From Balamuthia mandrillaris (lineage: Eukaryota): a stretch of DNA of 64,000 nt. Shown here piece after piece: positions 54,201-63,500 of this stretch (its first letter is position 1; each line of letters opens with the position of its first letter). Under the pieces are notes generated by a model. It had not been told where the DNA came from. It saw only the letters and a list, made by a program, of their open reading frames with translations, and did no database searches. The stretch lies in contig JAVKOQ020000029.1 of NCBI GenBank assembly GCA_031835245.2, forward strand, positions 248,001 to 312,000. The letters run 5' to 3'. The position numbers and the translations under genes were made by a program.

Positions 54201-56772
54201 CCTCCTGAGAAAGCTTGTCCAACTCCTTGTCAATGGCTAGGGCCAGCTGCTGGATCTTGTCTTCTTGGCTGGGAAGCGCCTTCTGTATGTCTGTGTTGAT
54301 AGCCTTAATGTTGCGGCTCACTGTCTCCAACTTTTCTCGCTGACGAGGGTCATTGGGATTGGCAATGGCACCTGCAGCTACGCTGCGGAAGAGCGGCGTT
54401 ACGCGCTCCATCTCGAGAGCCAATCTGCCTAATTGATCCTTTCTTTGCAGATCCTCCTCCTCGTCTTGCAGTTTGCGTAGCAGTTCTACTTCCTTCTCCA
54501 AGCCCTTCTCCACATCTCGGGTGGCCTTCTTGGCGCCAGCCCTGTCTCCTTTATCCAAACCATCGGCCAGACGATCCAAGCCCTCGTTTACCGTCTCTGT
54601 CACGTCTCTAAGTTCTTCCTCGGTGGATGGATGAGAAGCATCCTCGATCTCTCTGAGTATGCTTCCAATCTCTGCCAACAGTTGGTCGAGCTTGGCTTGA
54701 GCGGCCTTATCACCAGCCAAGGCAGCCTGCAGAAGTTAAAGAGGTAATTTAGCTTACTGCCGAAACAAACCAATGCAAACGAGAAGAGAGGAAAGGAGGA
54801 GGAGGTTAGGTACAGAGAGAACACAAATAACTCACCTTTGTAAGAGGAACCAATTGGTTTTGTATTTCCTCCAAGCGAGCAATTGCGTTCTCCAGCTTTT
54901 GCTTTCGAACAGGATCCTTGCACTGATCGGCCAGAGCTCGTGCGGCCGCGATCTGCTCTGCAAGTCTCTCCCTGGCCGCCTTCAGATGGATGGCAGCGCC
55001 CTGCACATCCCTATCCTGAATTGCACGCTGCAGCAGCACCAACTCAGCCTCCAGCTCTTGTGTTCTCTTTCTAAGGAGCTCGTCAGGAGAAAGGGTAGCA
55101 ACGTCCACCAGACGAAAGACTGCTTCACGCATGTCTTGCACGTCCTTGCGAAGCTGTTCCAAAGTTTGAGCCTGACCAGGACTGGCCAAGGAGGCCTTTG
55201 CTGAGTTCATGAGCTCAGGGTTGAGTTTTTCGATAAAATCAACTTCCTCGTGGATGAGGGTAGTGGTGTGAAGGTCTTCTTCCGTATCAGCAATAGCGCG
55301 AGCTATGCCAGCCACACTTCCTACCTCCTCCGAGACAGTTCGCATAGTATTGGCTCCTCGCATCTTGTCTCCGTCCTCCGCATTTTCGCGCAGTTGCACG
55401 AGATGGGCATCCAGCTGTCTAGCCAACTCTATCAGCTTGTCCTTGGCCGATGAGGAGAGCACGCATGCTGCCAATAATGCTGCGCTTGCTTGCTTCGTTT
55501 CCTCGCAGAGGTTTTCCAAGCAAAACTTGGCGGAAGGATCGTTGTTACGCTGAAGTGAGGCTTTAGTGGCGGGAGTAAGATCGGCAGGCATTTTTTCTAC
55601 TTCGTAGCAGGCGTGCAGGATGTCAGCTTTGCTGTTGCTATCGGAGCAGTCCTCTCCTATAATGGTGGCAATATCTATCTCTCTCGTGATGGCTCCGTTG
55701 ATCATGTGTAGCGCGTTGGCTGACGCTGGGGCATCCTTTCTTCCCACCGCCTCCTGCAGAAGCGTTAATTGGTGTAAGATCTGTTCATGGCACTCACCTT
55801 TGTAAATAAGAAAAACATAAAACGAGTCAGTATAGAACAACTACCGTGCAAGGGACAAAGGCTCTCATAATCAATAGAAAAGAAGAAAGGAAAGGCGAAA
55901 CAGGAAACAGAGGAAACAACAGGAAACAACAATGATAACAACGGAAAGAGAGAGAACGAACGAAGATCTTGAATGGTGGGTCTCTGCGCAGGCTCAAAGC
56001 CCAAATCGACAGACTCAAACATGGTCTTGCAGGAGAGTTGTGCCACCTGAATAATCTCGTCAAGAGCCGCATCAAGCTCTTTGGCTAGGGTGCGGTGCTG
56101 GTTCTTGGCAGTAAGGGAGAGCGGGTCCCGAAGGACGTCTCCCATGGCCTTGACGAGGCTCTGCGTGTGTGCCTTAACTAGAGTGTTGGCCTCCTCCAAG
56201 CGGCGGCGCAGCACGGGGTCCACCAAGATCTGCACTCGAGCGTGAACTAGCTTGACCATGCTCACCACTGAGGAGGAGAGCGCCCTAGCCACGTCCATCA
56301 TCTGTTCTGAGGAGGCGGTGGAGGCCGGCGCGGTGGAGCGGGCCACCTCTTCCTTGCAGCGCTGCGCCGCTTTGACCAGTTTGATCACGTCATACTTGTC
56401 GGCCAGGTGAAGCTCCCTGACGGTGCCCTGCAAGACGGCCTTGGCCGAGCGTAGCAGCAGCCGTTTGGAATCTCTGTCAAAGGGGTCCACGCTGAGGTTG
56501 CGCGCCGCTTCCACAATGCCCTCCGTAGCAGAACGGATCTCGTGGGCAGAGTCGTGCATTTTGGATTGGAGCTTGGCCTCGTCGCCGTACTTGCTGGCCA
56601 TGTCCTCGGCGATATCCACCAGCACCAAGACGGCCTGTTTGACGGCCTCGGCGCCTGGCGCGATGTTGGGCAAGGTGCTGTTGTTCTCCTCAGCCTCCAC
56701 AGAGAACAGGACCAACTGCGTTACCGCGTCGGCCACCGCCTCCAGCACTTGCTCCATTCCCGTTTCAGCCAT
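51268..56772 (-). CDS. Vinculin/alpha-catenin family protein, about 1743 aa, three exons
   Basis: N-terminal EQVLEAVADAVTQLV...LPNI; repeated helical bundles; vinculin tail DEIMQAA...CKDPILRDQV...TTQLKIITAVKA. Exons 56772-55962, 55797-54836 and 54726-51268 join in frame. Confidence 0.85.
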
Positions 56773-57171
56773 CTGTTTCTTTGTTTTTTTTTGTGTGTGT
56801 TTATTCAAAAGTAAAAGCGAGTTAAACAGAGCGAGTAGCAACTATTCCTGAGAGAAGGCTGTACCACTGCTTCCTCTCCCGACAAGCCTTTTTTTTTCTC
56901 TCTTTCCTTGCCACACAGGAATACTAGAGAGCAGCAAAGCGCTGACCGAAAAGAAATCTATTTCAAAAAAAAAAAAAGTTAAATTGGAGTGTCCTGGGAG
57001 ATCAAATTGGCCAAACTTTGTGCAGAGATCTGAGGAGGGGGGTGATGTCCGTATTTCCTTTTATGAGGCGGAGTGACGTGTGCGGGGTGTCCCTTTGTCC
57101 ACCCGACAAGAAAAGTAAAGCTCGACAGAAGGTCGGGCAGGATAGAAGGGGGTCTGGTCAAGGCAACAAGG

Positions 57172-58372
57172 ATGGTGGATATCATCACACGGAAAAACAG
57201 AACCATGTAAGTAAAACCATCCAATCTTCTCTCTCCTTTGCTCTCTCTCCTCTTTCTCTGTATCTACCTACCCCTTCATCAGCTACGCGTTAGCCGCACT
57301 ATCCGTATTCTTTTGTGTGCTTTGGTTGCGGAGCTCACGTTCTTCAACTACTTACACTGTTATCCGCTATGAAACAGCCCCGACGCCACAACCTACTTCC
57401 CAATATCCCTACATGAATAGTAATAACAAGTTCAAGCGAAGGGACCAGGCTGACCCCTCCCCTCTTTCAATCGACCCAACAACTGCCCCCCTCAGCGACC
57501 AGTGCATAATCTTTTGGCACGTTACCAAAACCGGGGGAACAACTCTCCGGCATATCCTCCTTCGTGAAGCCACAGCCAGAGGACGCACCGTGGAACACAT
57601 GGACGAGTTTGTCACCCTTCCAGGGGACATAACTTTTGGCCACGTGGCTCCAGGCCGTATCATCCAACTACTAGAAAACGGCCGGGCAGAGGAGCGTCGG
57701 CTCAAGGGAGGAAAACAATGCTACTGGTTGACAAGCAACCGTGACCCTTTAGAGCGTTTTATCTCCCGGTTCTACTTTCGCAGGGAGTGGGGACCCTCTT
57801 TGGAGGACTTTGTGCGAAGCGGGGATCCAGCCCTCCGCACCTTTCCCATCTTTAACAACCGCAACCTGCTGGATCGCACGCTCAACCTCCTCGACGAGTT
57901 TGACCTCATCCTTTTGTCAGAACGCTTCGATGAGTCGTTGATACTTCTGGTTGAGGAGGACCACGTCCTTTCCCACAACGCCCTCAACTACACTAGCTAC
58001 GGCGTCATCCAAGGGCGCCCCAAACAGGACGACTTGCCACCCGACGTGCGTGCTCGGCTACGTGAGCTGCTGGCCCTGGACCTGCGTTACTTTGAGGCCA
58101 CGCAGCGGCATTTGGAGCGGCGGATAGAGCGGTTCGGGGTGGAGCGGATGCGGGAGAGGCTAGAGGACCTGCAACGGTGGAGAGGGGAACCGCCTTGCGC
58201 CAAGCCCAGGGAGGCACTGGTCAATGGCTCTGGCGCCTGCAAGAACTTTGGCTACATTGCCAAGCAGTTGCAGAAGCAAGCGAGGGTGGTCCAAGTCGTA
58301 GCTGTGCCCATCAAGCAGATGGTGTGGGTTAGTGTTGAAGCTCCCAAGAGGAAACAAAATGGGATAAAATGA
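57172..58372 (+). CDS. Golgi-type type II membrane sulfotransferase (Gal-3-O-ST-like)
   Basis: 5'-PSB motif FWHVTKTGGTT, 3'-PB motif RDPLERFISRFY, ERFDESLILL. A TM anchor appears after splicing intron 57207-57282. Confidence 0.85.
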
Positions 58373-58444
58373 AAGAAGAAAGGAAGCGGTGGTAACGTTT
58401 GTTTGTTTTCTGTTTTTTTCGTTGCCCTCTTGGAGAGAAGAGAA

Positions 58445-59877
58445 ATGCAAGAAGCGCAGCAAGTGGAGGCACAAACGGGTGGGGTGGAGAGGTCCATAGT
58501 TCGTTTGGTTTGTTCGTGTCTTCGTCATTTTTTCTTCTTGAAAGAAAAGAACAACAACCAGCAGAAGCACAGAGAGAAGAAAGCGGTTGGAGCGTAAAAG
58601 AAATAGGGGACGGCAACCTCAACTTTGTTTATGTTGTCACTCGTCGCTCCCAAGATGGCCAGCAACAACAACAGGAGCGCAGCCTCGTCGTCAAGCAAGC
58701 GGTCCCTTATGTGCGAATGGTCGGCGAGAGTTGGCCTCTCTCCCCCGAACGGGCGTTCTTCGAGCATGAAGCACTGCGAGAGCAGCATCGACACGCTCCC
58801 GAGCACGTCCCTCGAGTCTTTCATTTCTTCCCTGGCCCTCACCATGCCACCGTCATGGAGTACCTTCCAAACGCCTCCTACCGTTCATTGCGTAAATCTT
58901 TGATTCGGGCACGAAAGCATCCAGCATTGGCTCCACACATGGCTCGTTTTCTCGCTCGCTCTTTGTTCTTCACGAGCGCTTTGTGTGAAGCGAATCGACA
59001 GCAAAACGATCGGTTGAGAGACATCTTTAACGGTAATCAACTCTATCGACTGACCCAAGCGGTCATCTTTGAGGAACCCTTCACACGAAACCACAAGAAC
59101 AACCGATGGACGTCACATCCGCTGCTGGACGAGGAAGTGGCGAGCATCCAAGCCAACGCTGCCCTCCTTCGGCGCGTGGAAGAGGCCAAGACAACATTTC
59201 TGACCCACAAAGAAGCTTTGCTTCATGCCGATCTTCACACCGGATCCGTTCTAGTGGGAGAAGGTGGCGGAGAAACCAAAGTGCTTGACCCAGAGTTTGC
59301 TTTCTTCGGACCTATTGCTTTTGATGTTGGCCAGTTTGTTGGCAACTTGCTTCTCGCTGTATACAGTCAGCGTGGCCTCGTTGAGAAGGAAGAGGAAGAG
59401 GAGAAAAGAAAGGATATGGAAGAATGGATCCTGACCGCCATCGAAGAACTATGGGACCGGTTTCTTGCTCTCTTTCGTGACTTGGTGGAACAGCACTCTT
59501 CCTACGGCTTGCTCTCTTTACCTTTGCATGAAGAGAAAGCTGGCGTGAAAGAAGGAAAAGAAGAGGAAGAAAGGATTTGGGAAGCCTTCACGACGCAGTT
59601 GCTGAAGGATGTGTTGGCGTTTAGCGGGGTGGTCATGATCAGACGGATTGTTGGCATTGCGCATGCGGAGGACATGGAGGTCATTCAACGGGTGGAGAGA
59701 AAGGTTGCCTGCGAGAGAAGAGCGCTTCGTATGGCTCAGCAGTTGATCCTCGCATCTCCTCCTTTTGACGAGAAGGAGAAGATAGAGGAGCAACAAGGCA
59801 CAGGAGGAGGAGCGTCTATGCGTGATGTGCTGATGGATGTTAGACGTTCTCTTCTGTTGGAGGATGAAGCTGACTGA
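58445..59877 (+). CDS. mtnK: S-methyl-5-thioribose kinase; start tentative
   Basis: EIGDGNLNFVY, VKQAVPYVRMVGESWPL, LLHADLHTGS, DPEFAFFGP, RRIVGIAH. Confidence 0.95.
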
Positions 59878-59909
59878 AAAAAAAAGAAAAAGAAAAAGGC
59901 GGTGTTCTG

Positions 59910-60060
59910 ATGGATTAAAAGTCACACAAGTGAGTAAACTCACAAAATGAAAGTTCTTGCGAGGATGTGGTGATGGGGTGGACTAGTGGGCTTCAGAAGC
60001 GCCCATCCACTTTCCCACCAGCACGCCCCCATTGGCTCCATCGGGCAACGCTGCGCAACA
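59910..60060 (-). ncRNA. Putative omegaRNA scaffold overlapping the Fanzor 3' end; boundaries approximate
   Basis: Nested stems 60010-60001 with 59991-59978; hairpin GTGAGT-tt-ACTCAC at 59943-59930; GATGGA (60042-60037) complementary to terminal TCCATC (59914-59909). Confidence 0.6.
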
Positions 60061-60425
60061 GAGGCTCCGGAGGAGTATGTTGCGCGCTCCATTTATGTCG
60101 CGATCCAGTCGTATCCCACAGTCCCTGTGTTTGCACTCGAAGATCCGCTCTCGTCGATTGTGTTGTTTCTGTTCGTGGGTCACACGGAGGCACCAGGTGC
60201 AAGTCTTACTGGTCCAAGCCTCCGATCGAACGTAGACCCTGGGCCCCATTCCCTCGCCTTGTGCATCAGCCACTGGCGGAATCGGTAATGGCCCCAGGAG
60301 TAGAGCATCCTGGCCGTCTTTTTGCCGATCTTCCTCCGCCGTCTCCCCCGGATGGCAGTCATGCCCTTTACACCAAAGGTGGGGATGATGACATGATCGT
60401 AGCGGCGGCACAGGAAGAGGGCCGT
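59983..60425 (-). pseudogene. Fanzor/TnpB RuvC-II, zinc finger and RuvC-III fragment with a 1-nt frameshift near 60241-60247
   Basis: FLCRRYDHVIIPTF...KTARMLYSWGHYRFRQWLMHKAREWG, then after the shift VYVRSEAWTSKTCTWC...FECKHRDCGIRLDRDINGARNI. Confidence 0.92.
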
Positions 60426-60587
60426 AAAGGCGGTGTTCTGCAAAAGAAACGCTAGGTGTTTTGCATGCCAAAGAAGAGAAACAAGGAAAGAGCAGAGGGA
60501 GAGAACGAAATGAAAGGCGTTCCTTTTAACAGTTTTTGTTGGTTTTATAAGGGTTTGTGTTGTTGACTATAAGAAAGAGAGAGAGTT

Positions 60588-63500
60588 TCACGATGTAGAG
60601 GAAGAAGCAGAAGCAGATAAAGAGGAAGGCCCAACTGTAACTTTCCGTCTCTTCCGATCAAAGCTTTTGTGAATGACCTTTGAGTGTTTAAGATAAGGAT
60701 CCTTCAGAAATAGAAACTCGAGGTCTTTGAGGTTAATCGTCCGACCGGTTTGTTGTTGCTGCGGACCAAGCGCTCGTCCTCTTGCTCCTCCCACCGTTGT
60801 GCCCGCAGCAGCAGAAGCAGGAAGATGTGATAACACAACGCCACTGCCACCAGCGGCAGCTGCTTTAGCGCTGGCTTTTTGTCGTTGCACCTGTTCTGTC
60901 ATTCTTCGGAACATCAGCGCAAGTCTCTCAAACTCTTGAGCCATCTCAGGGGTGAGAGTGCCGGCTTGCTTGGCTTGCTGTAGTTGTTGAAGTTTTCGCA
61001 AGTGTTCTTTCGTGAATGTGATTTGCGGTTGTTGTGATTGTTGTTGTTGTGATGATGGTGATGACGGGGGTGGGGGTTGGTTTTGTTGTTGTGGCTGAGA
61101 AGAAGGAAGATGACTTGTTGTGGCAGGGGTGGTTGTAGAAGCGGTGGGTCTTGTGCGAGGGCGGCCAATGTCGCCGATAGCTTGAAGGGCGGTTATGTTG
61201 GCGTGTCTGGTCCGAATCCTTTCTTCTTCTTCGTGGCGTCTTGCTTGTGTTTCCCGATCTCCTCCTTTCTTGCTGCTATCATCCTGTTTATTTATAGTCA
61301 GTTTCTCTCCATCTAATTTGAAAGTGAGAATAGCTAAAGTAACCTTTAATCCTTTTAGTTTTTCTTTTTCTTCAGCGTCTCTTTGCTCTTGTTCTTCCCG
61401 TTCTCTCTTTTCTATGAGTTGCAATTGTCGCCGTGGATCTGATGTGATGGTTATCTTAAAGTCATCCTTCAACGTATCCTGCCGCTGCTGAGAAATGATG
61501 GCGAGCTGTTCGATGATATTCCGTAAACGTTCCTCCACAGCACAGGTTAAATGATCGTACACTTCTTTATGAATTTGTTTCATTTGATGTATGCTTGCTG
61601 TTATTGATAAAGAGATAAATAAAATGGTGAGAAAACGCACTCACTGATGAAATGCAAAACAGAAAAAAGAAAAATAAGGATCGATCGTAGTCAGACTGAC
61701 GTGCAATTTCTCATCATAAAGATGCAGAGAAGCGATACTTTGTGTGTCATCATAAAGGATGCAAGAAGGAGAACATGAAAAAGAGGGAAGATACCAATTT
61801 CTACAACTTTTCTCCGTAAAGCCTCTCGTTGCAAAAAGGGACCTCGCGGGTCTTCTTCTGGCCACACAAGATCCATTCCCGAGTCCTTCCCCTCCCCACG
61901 CATAAATCGAAGGGACTCTTCCTTGAGATTGACACCAGCAAACTGCGTTACATCGTTCAGCTGTTTTAACGAAGTGGGTTGATCGGCATCTGCTTTTTTG
62001 CTCTCAGCTCCAGTCTTTTTGGCTTTGGCAGCGCTTTGTGTTGGTGCTCCTCCGCTAAGAATAAAAGAAAAAGCGAGTTAACAAAAAAGCTTTTGTAAAG
62101 CTGGCAGGTGGTCACTACCTTGAACTCAAATTATTCGCAGGAGGAGGTGGAGGCGGTTGTGTGAGTTGTTGTGAAGGTGTAGAAGCGGTTGAGCCAGTCG
62201 TGGGTGTTGTGCGTGGTTTTTTACTAATGGTGAATAAAAAGTAAATAACATAAACAAACCATAACAGCATTAGACGTTTGTGGGAGTTCAAAGGCTGGAT
62301 AACAAAGATAAAAGAACGGAGGGAGGGAGTCATACGCTGGAGGCTGTTTGATATCGGTGATAATAGGAGGATTAGAGACGTTGGGTGTTGGAGTGTTGAC
62401 AGTAGAGGAGGCGGTAGAAGGAGGTGGATGGATGGTTCCTCGTTTGACCATCCGAACGATGGGCTGCTGTTTATTTTGTTCATCGACGACGTTCGCAAAG
62501 GCTTGTGTGGGCGGCCGGCCCTGTTGATGTGATGGTTGCTGTGGTGGTTGTTGTTGCGGAATGGTAGTGCCTTGGGTAAGTTTGTAGGACGTTTGTGGAG
62601 GTGGTTGTTGCGGATGATGTTGTGGGTGCTGGGCGATAACGAGGAGAAATGGGCGAAAGAACGAAAGAAAAATGAGACAGAAACTGGCAACAATACAAGA
62701 AGAGAATTACGTACGGTGGCAGAGGAAGGGGTAGTAGTGTGTGGAGGGGCCTGAGTGGAGACAACACGGCTCTGTTGCGGGGCTCTTGGCTTGGAAAACT
62801 TTTTAATGAGCTCCATAGCAGTGGCAGGTCCAAGTGAGGCGCTCAGCTTATGCGTGAACTGCTCTTTGGTTATCTTTCCTGCCTATTAAACATTCATCGG
62901 AGTCAGAATAACAAAACGTCATCATTTCTGAAGACGGAAGCGAACGAGACAAGAAGGAACACTTTACCTGCAACTCACTCAAAAGATGTCTAAGCACGTC
63001 TTGGTAGTGTTGAGTCACTGATTGTGTCGTATGAGCAGTCAGAGGAGGAGGGGCTCCTCCTGGAGGAACGCCAGTGGCAACAGAAGGAGCAGGAGAAGAA
63101 GAGGGTGGCAGAGCAGTAACATGCGGCCGATGAGCGAGTGCAGCGCTTCTAGCAGCCGCTGCAGCTGCTGCACTGGCCGCGTTGGTGGTAGTAGCTGTCG
63201 AGTAAGAGGAGACACCGGAAGGAGCAGTTGATGTTGCAGAGGAGGTTACGGGCATGCCTGTAGAATGGAAGTTTGTGGTGGTGGCTGGTCGCTGATGAGA
63301 GAGTTGAGCAGCAGTTGTGTGTTGTGGATTAAGATTCGTAGCAGCGGGTGACATTGTTGTGGCTCTGTGTGCAGTAGCAGTGTAAGAAGGGGGAAGACCG
63401 ACGCGTTGTTGTGTAGCAGTGGCCAGGGGTTGTTGTTGTGGCGGCCGTGCTTGTTGTGTTGTTTGCTGTGGCGTCAGAGAGGTTGGTGGTTGTCTTGGTG

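What the first reader, a model, noticed from the sequence alone, without database searches (positions are those of the whole stretch)
59895..60440. Fanzor/TnpB RNA-guided nuclease remnant inserted between two housekeeping genes
Seen: two minus-strand frames join through a 1-nt shift in a G4C3 run (60241-60247) to give YDHVIIPTF...WGHYRFRQWL...SEAWTSKTCTWC...CKHRDC...DRDINGARNI. Known: this is the TnpB/Fanzor C-terminus (zinc finger plus RuvC-III DRDxN). It has the rearranged active site of Fanzors and IS607-type TnpB, with Pro at the canonical RuvC-II Glu position and an alternative Glu in ExxTSK. The N-terminus, RuvC-I and any transposase are absent. Inference: motifs are barely decayed, so an intact, recently active Fanzor family probably exists elsewhere in this genome or in an associated giant virus.
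Basis: partly seen in the sequence, partly recalled or inferred. Interest (0 to 1): 0.9.

Follow-up and report, generated by a model that had tools for sequence, protein, structure and literature searches.

The report
Fanzor2 homing scar in an amoeba
A leftover tail of a Fanzor jumping gene sits between two ordinary amoeba genes inside a short repeat that likely marks where the element's RNA-guided nuclease cut an empty copy of the site and repair stopped part-way; the family's ends also look like splice sites, so copies may be removed from RNA as introns.

Summary
Minus strand 60425-59907 is the 3' end of an IS607-type Fanzor2 element. Its two frames match a 486-aa Balamuthia mandrillaris gene model at 60/60 and 85/86 residues, and sister models carry an IS607 serine recombinase. 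No close viral relative was found. The frameshift is in the assembly but other runs do not corroborate it.

Other copies show the element ends in CAG, so the repeat is CAG plus 12 host bases. Empty alleles exist in two runs. IS607 transposition makes no such duplication. The best reading is a Fanzor cut at the empty site followed by aborted copying from a filled allele (0.55); Fanzor-independent templated repair is the main rival. Chlamydomonas Fanzor1 copies show a similar, unexplained pattern.

A second lead: one contig reads CAG|GTAAGT...CAG as a 68-nt mini-element, and one full element splits a Rictor gene model at a seamless phase-0 point, as an intron would. Neither cutting nor splicing was observed.

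The parts
60426..60440 (-). Left copy of the 15-bp repeat: host CAG (60440-60438; target core and predicted TAM) plus 12 host bases (60437-60426; predicted protospacer start)
   Evidence: Exact repeat; present once in empty-allele contigs X6 record 16 and X2 record 8. TAM role inferred.
60246..60425 (-). Fanzor2 ORF fragment, parent residues 340-399, with Pro at the canonical RuvC-II position (60383-60381); starts abruptly mid-gene
   Evidence: 60/60 identical to P0001; six RNA reads and one X6 contig run on into the native upstream sequence
60241..60247 (-). One-base loss relative to other copies; shifts the frame in this assembly
   Evidence: not corroborated in runs X2 or X6; 7 of 9 RNA reads carry the extra base
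59983..60249 (-). Fanzor2 ORF fragment, parent residues 400-486: shifted catalytic Glu (60222-60220), C4 zinc finger, RuvC-III Asp (60099-60097), stop
   Evidence: 85/86 identical to P0001; PF07282 and NF040570 hits; residues align to L79 Glu467 and Asp501
59907..60110 (-). Predicted omega-RNA scaffold region (overlaps the ORF end); its 5' limit is not known
   Evidence: Fold of 59892-60110: z -2.71, 4 of 200 shuffles as stable; no Rfam match
59907..59951 (-). Right end of the element, ending in CAG; two 9-nt direct repeats; pyrimidine-rich; shared by many other copies
   Evidence: 15 of 16 listed contig loose ends leave at 59907 or up to 3 bases further; summed depth 8442 in X2 against 71-215 on host bins; repeats; 18 of 27 pyrimidines
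59895..59909 (-). Right copy of the 15-bp repeat: element-terminal CAG (59909-59907) plus 12 host bases (59906-59895; predicted start of this locus's guide)
   Evidence: guide role inferred from IS607/Fanzor2 architecture
58396..59877 (+). Flanking host gene, methylthioribose kinase (stop-to-stop frame)
   Evidence: TIGR01767 379.8 bits, cut-off 275
60588..61640 (-). Flanking host gene, last coding stretch of TAF4; the insert lies 147 bases past its stop, on the same strand
   Evidence: PF05236 E 2.1e-28; coordinates

Best explanation
This is the last 519 bases of a young IS607-type Fanzor2 transposon of the amoeba, polymorphic at this site, and it is likely the scar of an aborted RNA-guided homing event. 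Inferred steps: (1) the serine recombinase inserted a full element after the host CAG; (2) that copy made an omega-RNA whose guide is the host sequence right of the element; (3) Fanzor2 cut an empty allele or sister about 12 or more bases past the CAG; (4) the right broken end copied back from the filled allele through the guide region and the right end, stopped at codon 340, and was joined to the left end, which still held CAG plus 12 bases. Shown: the fragment's identity, the CAG end, the repeat and the empty allele. The piece cannot encode a nuclease but keeps the predicted guide-RNA region.
For: The duplication begins exactly at the element's terminal CAG; CAG occurs at 1.6% of window positions. 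IS607-type elements make no TSDs and recombine at a matching dinucleotide (passages of PMC3627910; PMC10711439), so transposition alone does not give 12 extra bases. The right end is exact, the 5' end is cut mid-gene, and there is no poly(A). Empty alleles with one copy of the 15-mer exist in X6 and X2; in X2 the filled junction (depth 66.5, 0 differences) and an empty contig (19.4) occur together. Twelve bases lies within the target-strand cut range of MmeFz2 (9-14; PMC10432273), and Fanzor2 TAMs are 3 nt ending in G (TAG, CCG, GGG). Chlamydomonas CRe-1/2/3 Fanzor1 elements show the same pattern: 5'-truncated copies with 7-19-bp duplications right after the target motif, none on full-length copies, and 1 of 200 in a Fanzor-less Helitron family. 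Summed depth falls steadily from the right end inward, as many 5'-truncated copies would give.
Against: It is one locus; no genome was held, so I could not measure duplication lengths across copies. The closest solved relative cuts further out (non-target strand 19-20, target strand 15, 18, 21), and NlovFz2 at 19, so 12 would need trimming. Any event that joins host-plus-12 to a broken element gives the same anchoring, so the anatomy does not single out Fanzor. No full-length allele at this site was seen. A 6-base microhomology near the 5' junction fits end-joining under either model. Chlamydomonas also has duplications of 44-443 bp that a cut site cannot explain. The left junction still carries CAG plus a 12-base match, and Fz2 enzymes worked with 11-12-nt guides in human cells, so the scar might be re-cut. 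The X2 junction contig has 30 letters on the element side, one short of the tool's bridging rule, and no contig across the right junction was among those listed. The depth gradient could also reflect diverged subfamilies or mini-elements.
Confidence: 0.55

Rival explanations
1. Fanzor-independent templated repair. A full element at this site broke (for example an abortive recombinase cut at the left end) and lost its 5' part. The left host end copied 12 bases from the empty homolog, or in cis from beyond the right-end CAG, then rejoined at codon 340.
For: It gives the same CAG-anchored repeat. The 6-base microhomology near the junction and a short templated tract are typical of microhomology-mediated joining (recalled, not from a call). 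An empty allele is available as template.
Against: It needs loss of the whole left part of the element (the transposase gene and the first 339 Fanzor codons) plus a template switch. It gives no reason for a length in the range of Fanzor cut sites, nor for the Chlamydomonas contrast between Fanzor-bearing and Fanzor-less families.
Confidence: 0.27
2. RNA-templated insertion. Either a host reverse transcriptase extended the Fanzor-cut target strand along the bound guide-containing transcript, or a LINE retrocopied an element transcript and left a 15-bp target duplication.
For: 5' truncation with a 15-bp duplication is the usual look of target-primed reverse transcription (recalled). A cut that leaves the target strand paired to the guide (MmeFz2 pattern) would supply a primer.
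Against: There is no poly(A), and the 3' end is the exact transposon end. An ordinary LINE event would need both that and a target starting with CAG by chance (1.6%). No reverse transcriptase was looked for in this genome.
Confidence: 0.13
3. The insert or its repeat is an assembly artefact or a chance repeat.
For: The frameshift and the base at 59987 are not seen in the covering X2 or X6 contigs at 95% or more, so this assembly may hold small errors. X2 may be the source of the assembly.
Against: A short-read contig matches the 5' junction with 0 differences at depth 66.5, and empty alleles show the same 15-mer once. The repeat falls exactly on both ends of the homology.
Confidence: 0.05

Closest known systems
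Fanzor2 in IS607-like elements: ApmFz2 / L79 of mimivirus (PDB 9b0l; PMC11832414) and ACa-1/-2 of Acanthamoeba (PMC3627910)
   Same: DPG RuvC-I, shifted Glu six residues before the zinc finger, DRDxN; triad aligned to L79; IS607 serine recombinase in sister copies.
   Different: A separate lineage: outside Balamuthia the nearest sequences are one metagenome protein at 65% and the rest at 47% or less. The end core is (C)AG rather than GG; the second zinc-finger pair is Cx4C. This copy is 5'-truncated and carries a 12-base duplication that IS607 transposition does not make.
5'-truncated CRe-1/2/3 Fanzor1-Helitron2 copies of Chlamydomonas (PMC3627910; discussed in PMC10288648)
   Same: Intact 3' end, 5' truncation, and a duplication of 7-19 bp starting right after the target motif.
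   Different: Fanzor1 with a rolling-circle Helitron rather than Fanzor2 with a serine recombinase. The authors called it one-ended transposition; the 2023 paper says the cause is unknown and tentatively suggests HUH plus Fanzor cutting. Seeing it without an HUH enzyme points to the nuclease or to repair as the common cause (inference).
TnpB/IscB transposon restorative homing (reviewed in PMC13565253)
   Same: The proposed cut of the empty site and repair from the filled sister.
   Different: The review lists homing as shown for TnpB of IS605 and IS607 and for IscB, and lists Fanzors only as nucleases. Here the product is incomplete and the mechanism is inferred.
IS607 IStrons (10.1101/2023.11.20.567912) and introners (PMC12130899)
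   Same: An element whose ends would let it be spliced out exactly; the right end doubles as guide-RNA scaffold and 3' splice site.
   Different: The ends are spliceosomal GT...AG rather than a group I ribozyme. The introner classes named in the passages I read are TIR, LTR, non-LTR, Helitron and Crypton; IS607 and Fanzor occur 0 times in that main text. Splicing is not shown here, and the window copy lacks a left end.

Membership tests
Fanzor2 | RuvC-I DPG motif | tested here: met
   Present in all 5 models scanned, P0001 residue 265; outside the window fragment
Fanzor2 | Catalytic Glu moved to six residues before the zinc finger, 120-160 residues after DPG | tested here: met
   Glu408, 143 residues after Asp265; aligns to L79 Glu467; criterion from PMC10711439 methods
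Fanzor2 | C4 zinc finger followed by RD (RuvC-III) | tested here: met
   CxxC-x18-Cx4C then DRD; the second pair is Cx4C, so the strict CxxC pattern would miss it
Fanzor2 | Encoded in a eukaryote or a virus of eukaryotes | tested here: met
   Between MTR kinase and TAF4; relatives named B. mandrillaris by the source; one sits inside a Rictor model
Fanzor2 | IS607 serine-recombinase partner | tested here: met
   NF033518 above cut-off in P0002, P0007 and P0010; not seen in the P0001 model or in the window copy
Fanzor2 | Groups with Fanzor2 rather than bacterial pro-Fanzors | tested here: inconclusive
   Quick tree of 62 rows (the careful search did not finish): own clade at 100, outside the bacterial rows (one side of a branch at 89), weak backbone, no reference Fanzor1 included
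Fanzor2 | omega-RNA that runs past the right end | not testable with these tools
   No small-RNA data; fold z -2.71; a candidate pseudoknot was reached by 75 of 2000 shuffles and competes with a stem
Fanzor2 | RNA-guided cleavage next to a 3-nt TAM | not testable with these tools
   CAG is predicted from the ends only
IS607 transposon | No terminal inverted repeats or TSD; same short core at both junctions | tested here: inconclusive
   CAG at the target and at the right end; a left end seen in one contig only; this copy has 12 extra duplicated bases, which is non-canonical
Introner | GT...AG ends whose removal restores the host reading frame | tested here: inconclusive
   Right end CAG; one contig reads CAG|GTAAGT at 68 nt; removing residues 192-894 of P0007 leaves Rictor with no gain or loss against the human chain. 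A native intron at that point is not excluded
Introner | Many similar copies inside host genes, spliced from mRNA | not testable with these tools
   High right-end depth, but no genome and no reads laid on a host gene that holds a copy
IStron | Group I intron ribozyme at the 5' end | tested here: inconclusive
   No Rfam match in 59800-60600, but the 5' end is not in the window; an 84-nt leader in P0007 leaves no room for one if the model is unspliced there
LINE-mobilised retrocopy | Poly(A) or simple-repeat tail before the 3' duplication | tested here: not met
   The insert ends at the transposon end

The most novel reading that the evidence does not exclude
Balamuthia carries an active IS607/Fanzor2 family that is the spliceosomal counterpart of a bacterial IStron. 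It inserts after CAG, begins GT(A/G)AGT and ends CAG, so full and 68-nt copies are spliced out as new introns, while its RNA-guided nuclease cuts empty alleles and leaves TAM-anchored scars like this one as a genomic record of Fanzor homing in a eukaryote.
Probability: 0.35. Interest if true: 0.88.

Novelty: new variant of a known kind. Interest (0 to 1): 0.66.

Why it matters
What Fanzors do in their own hosts is still open: a 2026 review lists homing as shown only for bacterial TnpB and IscB. If scars of this shape record Fanzor cuts, TAM, cut position and in-vivo activity could be read from assemblies, and the unexplained Chlamydomonas duplications would have a testable cause. A strain holding filled and empty alleles together offers a natural test. 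If the ends are used as splice sites, a serine-recombinase, RNA-guided element would be a source of new spliceosomal introns, a class I did not find in the papers searched. The protein alone is just one more Fanzor2, with a predicted CAG TAM.

Tried and rejected
No genome was held, so no genome-wide copy survey. No other copy or right end in the window: the best match scored 32, shuffled ends 30-32. A 21-base right-end pattern found 0 matches in metagenome and viral contigs. P0001 found no viral locus. An alignment of three close proteins gave 595 candidate stretches and 0 relatives in metagenome contigs. A wider alignment gave 79 viral and 80 prokaryotic loci at 24-43% identity, so no donor was identified; the giant-virus source is rejected for lack of support, not disproved. 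A search for other gene models that read through the left end returned only P0002. Matching the mini-element's left part to the P0007 leader peptide was not significant (125 and 78 of 1000 nulls). A second loose end did better (24, 26, 31 and 12 of 1000), but I picked both by eye from the 14 'behind' rows, so this is weak. The pseudoknot candidate is weak. A crude intron finder gave 14 unverified candidates, used only for a rough size range of 67-255 nt. No RNA holder was listed. RNA reads in X22 lie on both strands, cannot be assigned to this copy, and are not used as evidence of expression. Earlier findings: nothing for this genome or sequence; eight unrelated Fanzor notes were not used. No structure prediction was run, since the sequence evidence was sufficient.

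Full report
Observation. The stated motifs are on the minus strand in two frames that switch at 60241-60247. Searched separately, both halves hit NCBIfam guided_TnpB in order, and the 3' half passes the Pfam zinc-ribbon cut-off. The flanking genes are methylthioribose kinase and TAF4; both end toward the insert. The insert is 57% GC against 31% and 38% for the two short flanks.

Parent family. The 3' half found 5 proteins among 25 candidates. P0001 (486 aa, KAL6040379.1, named Balamuthia mandrillaris by its source) matches the halves at 60/60 and 85/86 residues, so the fragment is codons 340-486. P0002, P0006, P0007 and P0008 form a sister cluster about 88% identical over the 3' half, and P0010 is a third subfamily. 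P0002, P0007 and P0010 pass the IS607 transposase cut-off; P0006 and P0008 were not scanned. DPG, the Pro, the shifted Glu and the RuvC-III Asp are present in all 5 models scanned and align to the triad of mimivirus L79 Fanzor2, the best of 20 solved matches. P0001 has a gap of about 40 residues against P0002, so it may be a model that skips a lesion. Viral and prokaryotic loci reach only 24-43%. A quick tree puts the amoeba proteins and one metagenome protein in their own clade with a weak backbone (62 rows, chosen as 33 proteins, 11 marked viral loci and every third other locus, kept if a core could be cut out).

Frameshift. Other copies have one more base behind 60242. At 95% likeness the single covering contig in X2 and in X6 has it, and so do 7 of 9 RNA reads. 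X2 holds the filled junction, so the shift may be an assembly error, but contigs can drop such variants. It does not affect the reading, since the gene is truncated anyway.

The repeat and the ends. An exact 15-bp repeat flanks the 516-bp insert. Of 16 contig loose ends listed at the right end, 8 leave at 59907, 7 leave 1-3 bases further and 1 leaves at 59911; 5 RNA reads leave at 59907; 7 rows were not shown. So the element ends in CAG, and the repeat is CAG plus 12 host bases. The excess at 59904-59906 may reflect a liking for A after CAG or alignment overshoot. An X6 contig starts at 60426 and carries before it the host letters that precede the other repeat copy, which is the empty site. 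An X2 contig also starts at 60426 (depth 19.4, 2 differences; its loose letters were not listed) beside a filled-junction contig (depth 66.5, 0 differences, 30 letters on the element side). No filled junction was listed for X6. Summed depth in X2 is 8442 over the last 50 bases, 2771 over the next 50, about 1200 to 60113 and 254-819 further in, against 71-215 on host bins. The tool warns that this is no copy number, but it shows many right ends. The native sequence upstream of the truncation point, seen in 6 RNA reads, shares a hexamer with the end of the left repeat one base out of register (roughly 1 in 800 by a simple estimate).

Mechanism. IS607 elements recombine at a matching dinucleotide and make no duplication. 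A normal insertion here would read host-CAG, whole element, CAG-host. We see host-CAG, 12 host bases, a truncated element with an exact right end, then the same 12 bases. That is what a cut in the empty allele would leave if the right end copied part-way from a filled allele and was then joined to the left end. Published Fz2 cuts bracket the value without fixing it: MmeFz2 9-14 on the target strand and 17-18 on the other, NlovFz2 19, ApmFz2 15-21. Bao and Jurka reported the same shape for Chlamydomonas Fanzor1-Helitron2 copies (7-19 bp, after TTTT, on about 70% of 150 CRe-1 loci, and 1 of 200 in a Fanzor-less family), with some much longer cases. Craig wrote that the cause is unknown and tentatively invoked Fanzor with the HUH enzyme. 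Finding it in a serine-recombinase element removes the HUH enzyme from the explanation. A break in the filled allele repaired by short templated synthesis gives the same anatomy and stays a serious rival; RNA-templated routes are less likely; one locus cannot separate them.

Splice-shaped ends. Three observations point the same way. First, one X2 contig leaves the right end after 45 bases and continues for 23 bases to host CAG followed by GTAAGT, a 68-nt unit bounded GT...AG. Second, P0007 is a full element inside a Rictor model; the host halves align to consecutive residues of the human chain (815 and 816), so removing residues 192-894 leaves no gain or loss, and residue 192 is Val, whose codons all start GT. 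Third, P0010 stops at D-R where its relative continues, as an element starting GT(A/G)A would force if nested after CAG; P0008 has the next accession, and the longest contig given for both is 16,590 bp. Against this: the third point could be a contig end; P0007 could hold the element inside a native intron; the 68-nt unit could be a second scar at a native exon-intron junction; one test linking it to the P0007 leader failed and another was only modest and chosen by eye. No spliced read was seen. The window copy has no left end and is intergenic, so it is not itself an intron.

Literature. Fanzor with Balamuthia gave 0 papers and introner with Balamuthia 0. Fanzor, IS607 and spliceosomal intron together gave 2 hits, 1 listed, the IStron preprint. 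None of the 30 listed of 174 papers or the 38 preprints pairs introner with Fanzor, TnpB or IS607. Searches gave the papers used. I saw passages of PMC3627910, PMC10432273, PMC10530073, PMC10288648, PMC13565253, PMC11832414, PMC12130899 and 10.1101/2023.11.20.567912; passages and one methods part of PMC10711439; and only the listing and a supplement search of PMC9860276. Balamuthia was absent by name from the supplements searched for four papers (two files unsearched, one; tables that list only accessions would be missed). It appears in the genome list of PMC9860276 with 0 in what looks like the gene-count column, so it was probably not screened. Preprint supplements were not available and subscription papers are not in the library, so absence from print is not proven. 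The remarks on microhomology-mediated joining and on target-primed reverse transcription are recalled.

Verdict. As a protein it is a new member of Fanzor2. As a locus it is a new variant: a polymorphic, TAM-anchored truncated copy that is likely a homing scar (0.55), in a family whose ends may serve as splice sites (about 0.4 alone, 0.35 together with homing). Both are directly testable with the assembly and RNA-seq. Interest 0.66.

Noticed in passing
P0007 (KAL6067239.1) residues 1-42; compare window 59907-60100: The Rictor model begins with about 40 residues that resemble other reading frames of the element's 3' end, so a second copy seems to lie about 150 codons upstream of the full element in the same gene, on the same strand.
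   Followed up: partly
P0010 and P0008 (KAL6041057.1, KAL6041058.1): Two elements of different subfamilies with consecutive accessions and the same longest-contig length (16,590 bp), possibly nested; P0010 is a gene model that fuses a 720-residue host protein without Pfam or NCBIfam hits to transposase and Fanzor.
   Followed up: partly
window 59936-59951 (loose ends): Several contigs leave the element after only 30-45 bases of right end, some into A-rich sequence that looks like host DNA; these may be very short truncated copies or mini-element subfamilies.
   Followed up: partly
window 59939-60034 (joints): Contigs in X2 and X12 skip 79-89 bases inside the predicted guide-RNA region, removing most of a long predicted stem; possible internally shortened copies.
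   Followed up: no
window 60426-60480, run X2: Filled and empty contigs occur at depths 66.5 and 19.4; the empty one has two differences whose places were not listed. Worth checking for a drive toward the filled allele or an escape mutation.
   Followed up: no
P0009 (ENA metagenome, 1656-bp contig): A 65%-identical Fanzor2 with the same Cx4C finger, the only close relative outside the named amoeba; it may mark a related unsampled host.
   Followed up: partly
window 54806-56841 (-) and 57215-58372 (+): A vinculin-family gene (PF01044, E 6e-28) and a galactose-3-O-sulfotransferase-like gene (PF06990, E 1.7e-8) lie upstream of the kinase; ordinary.
   Followed up: no
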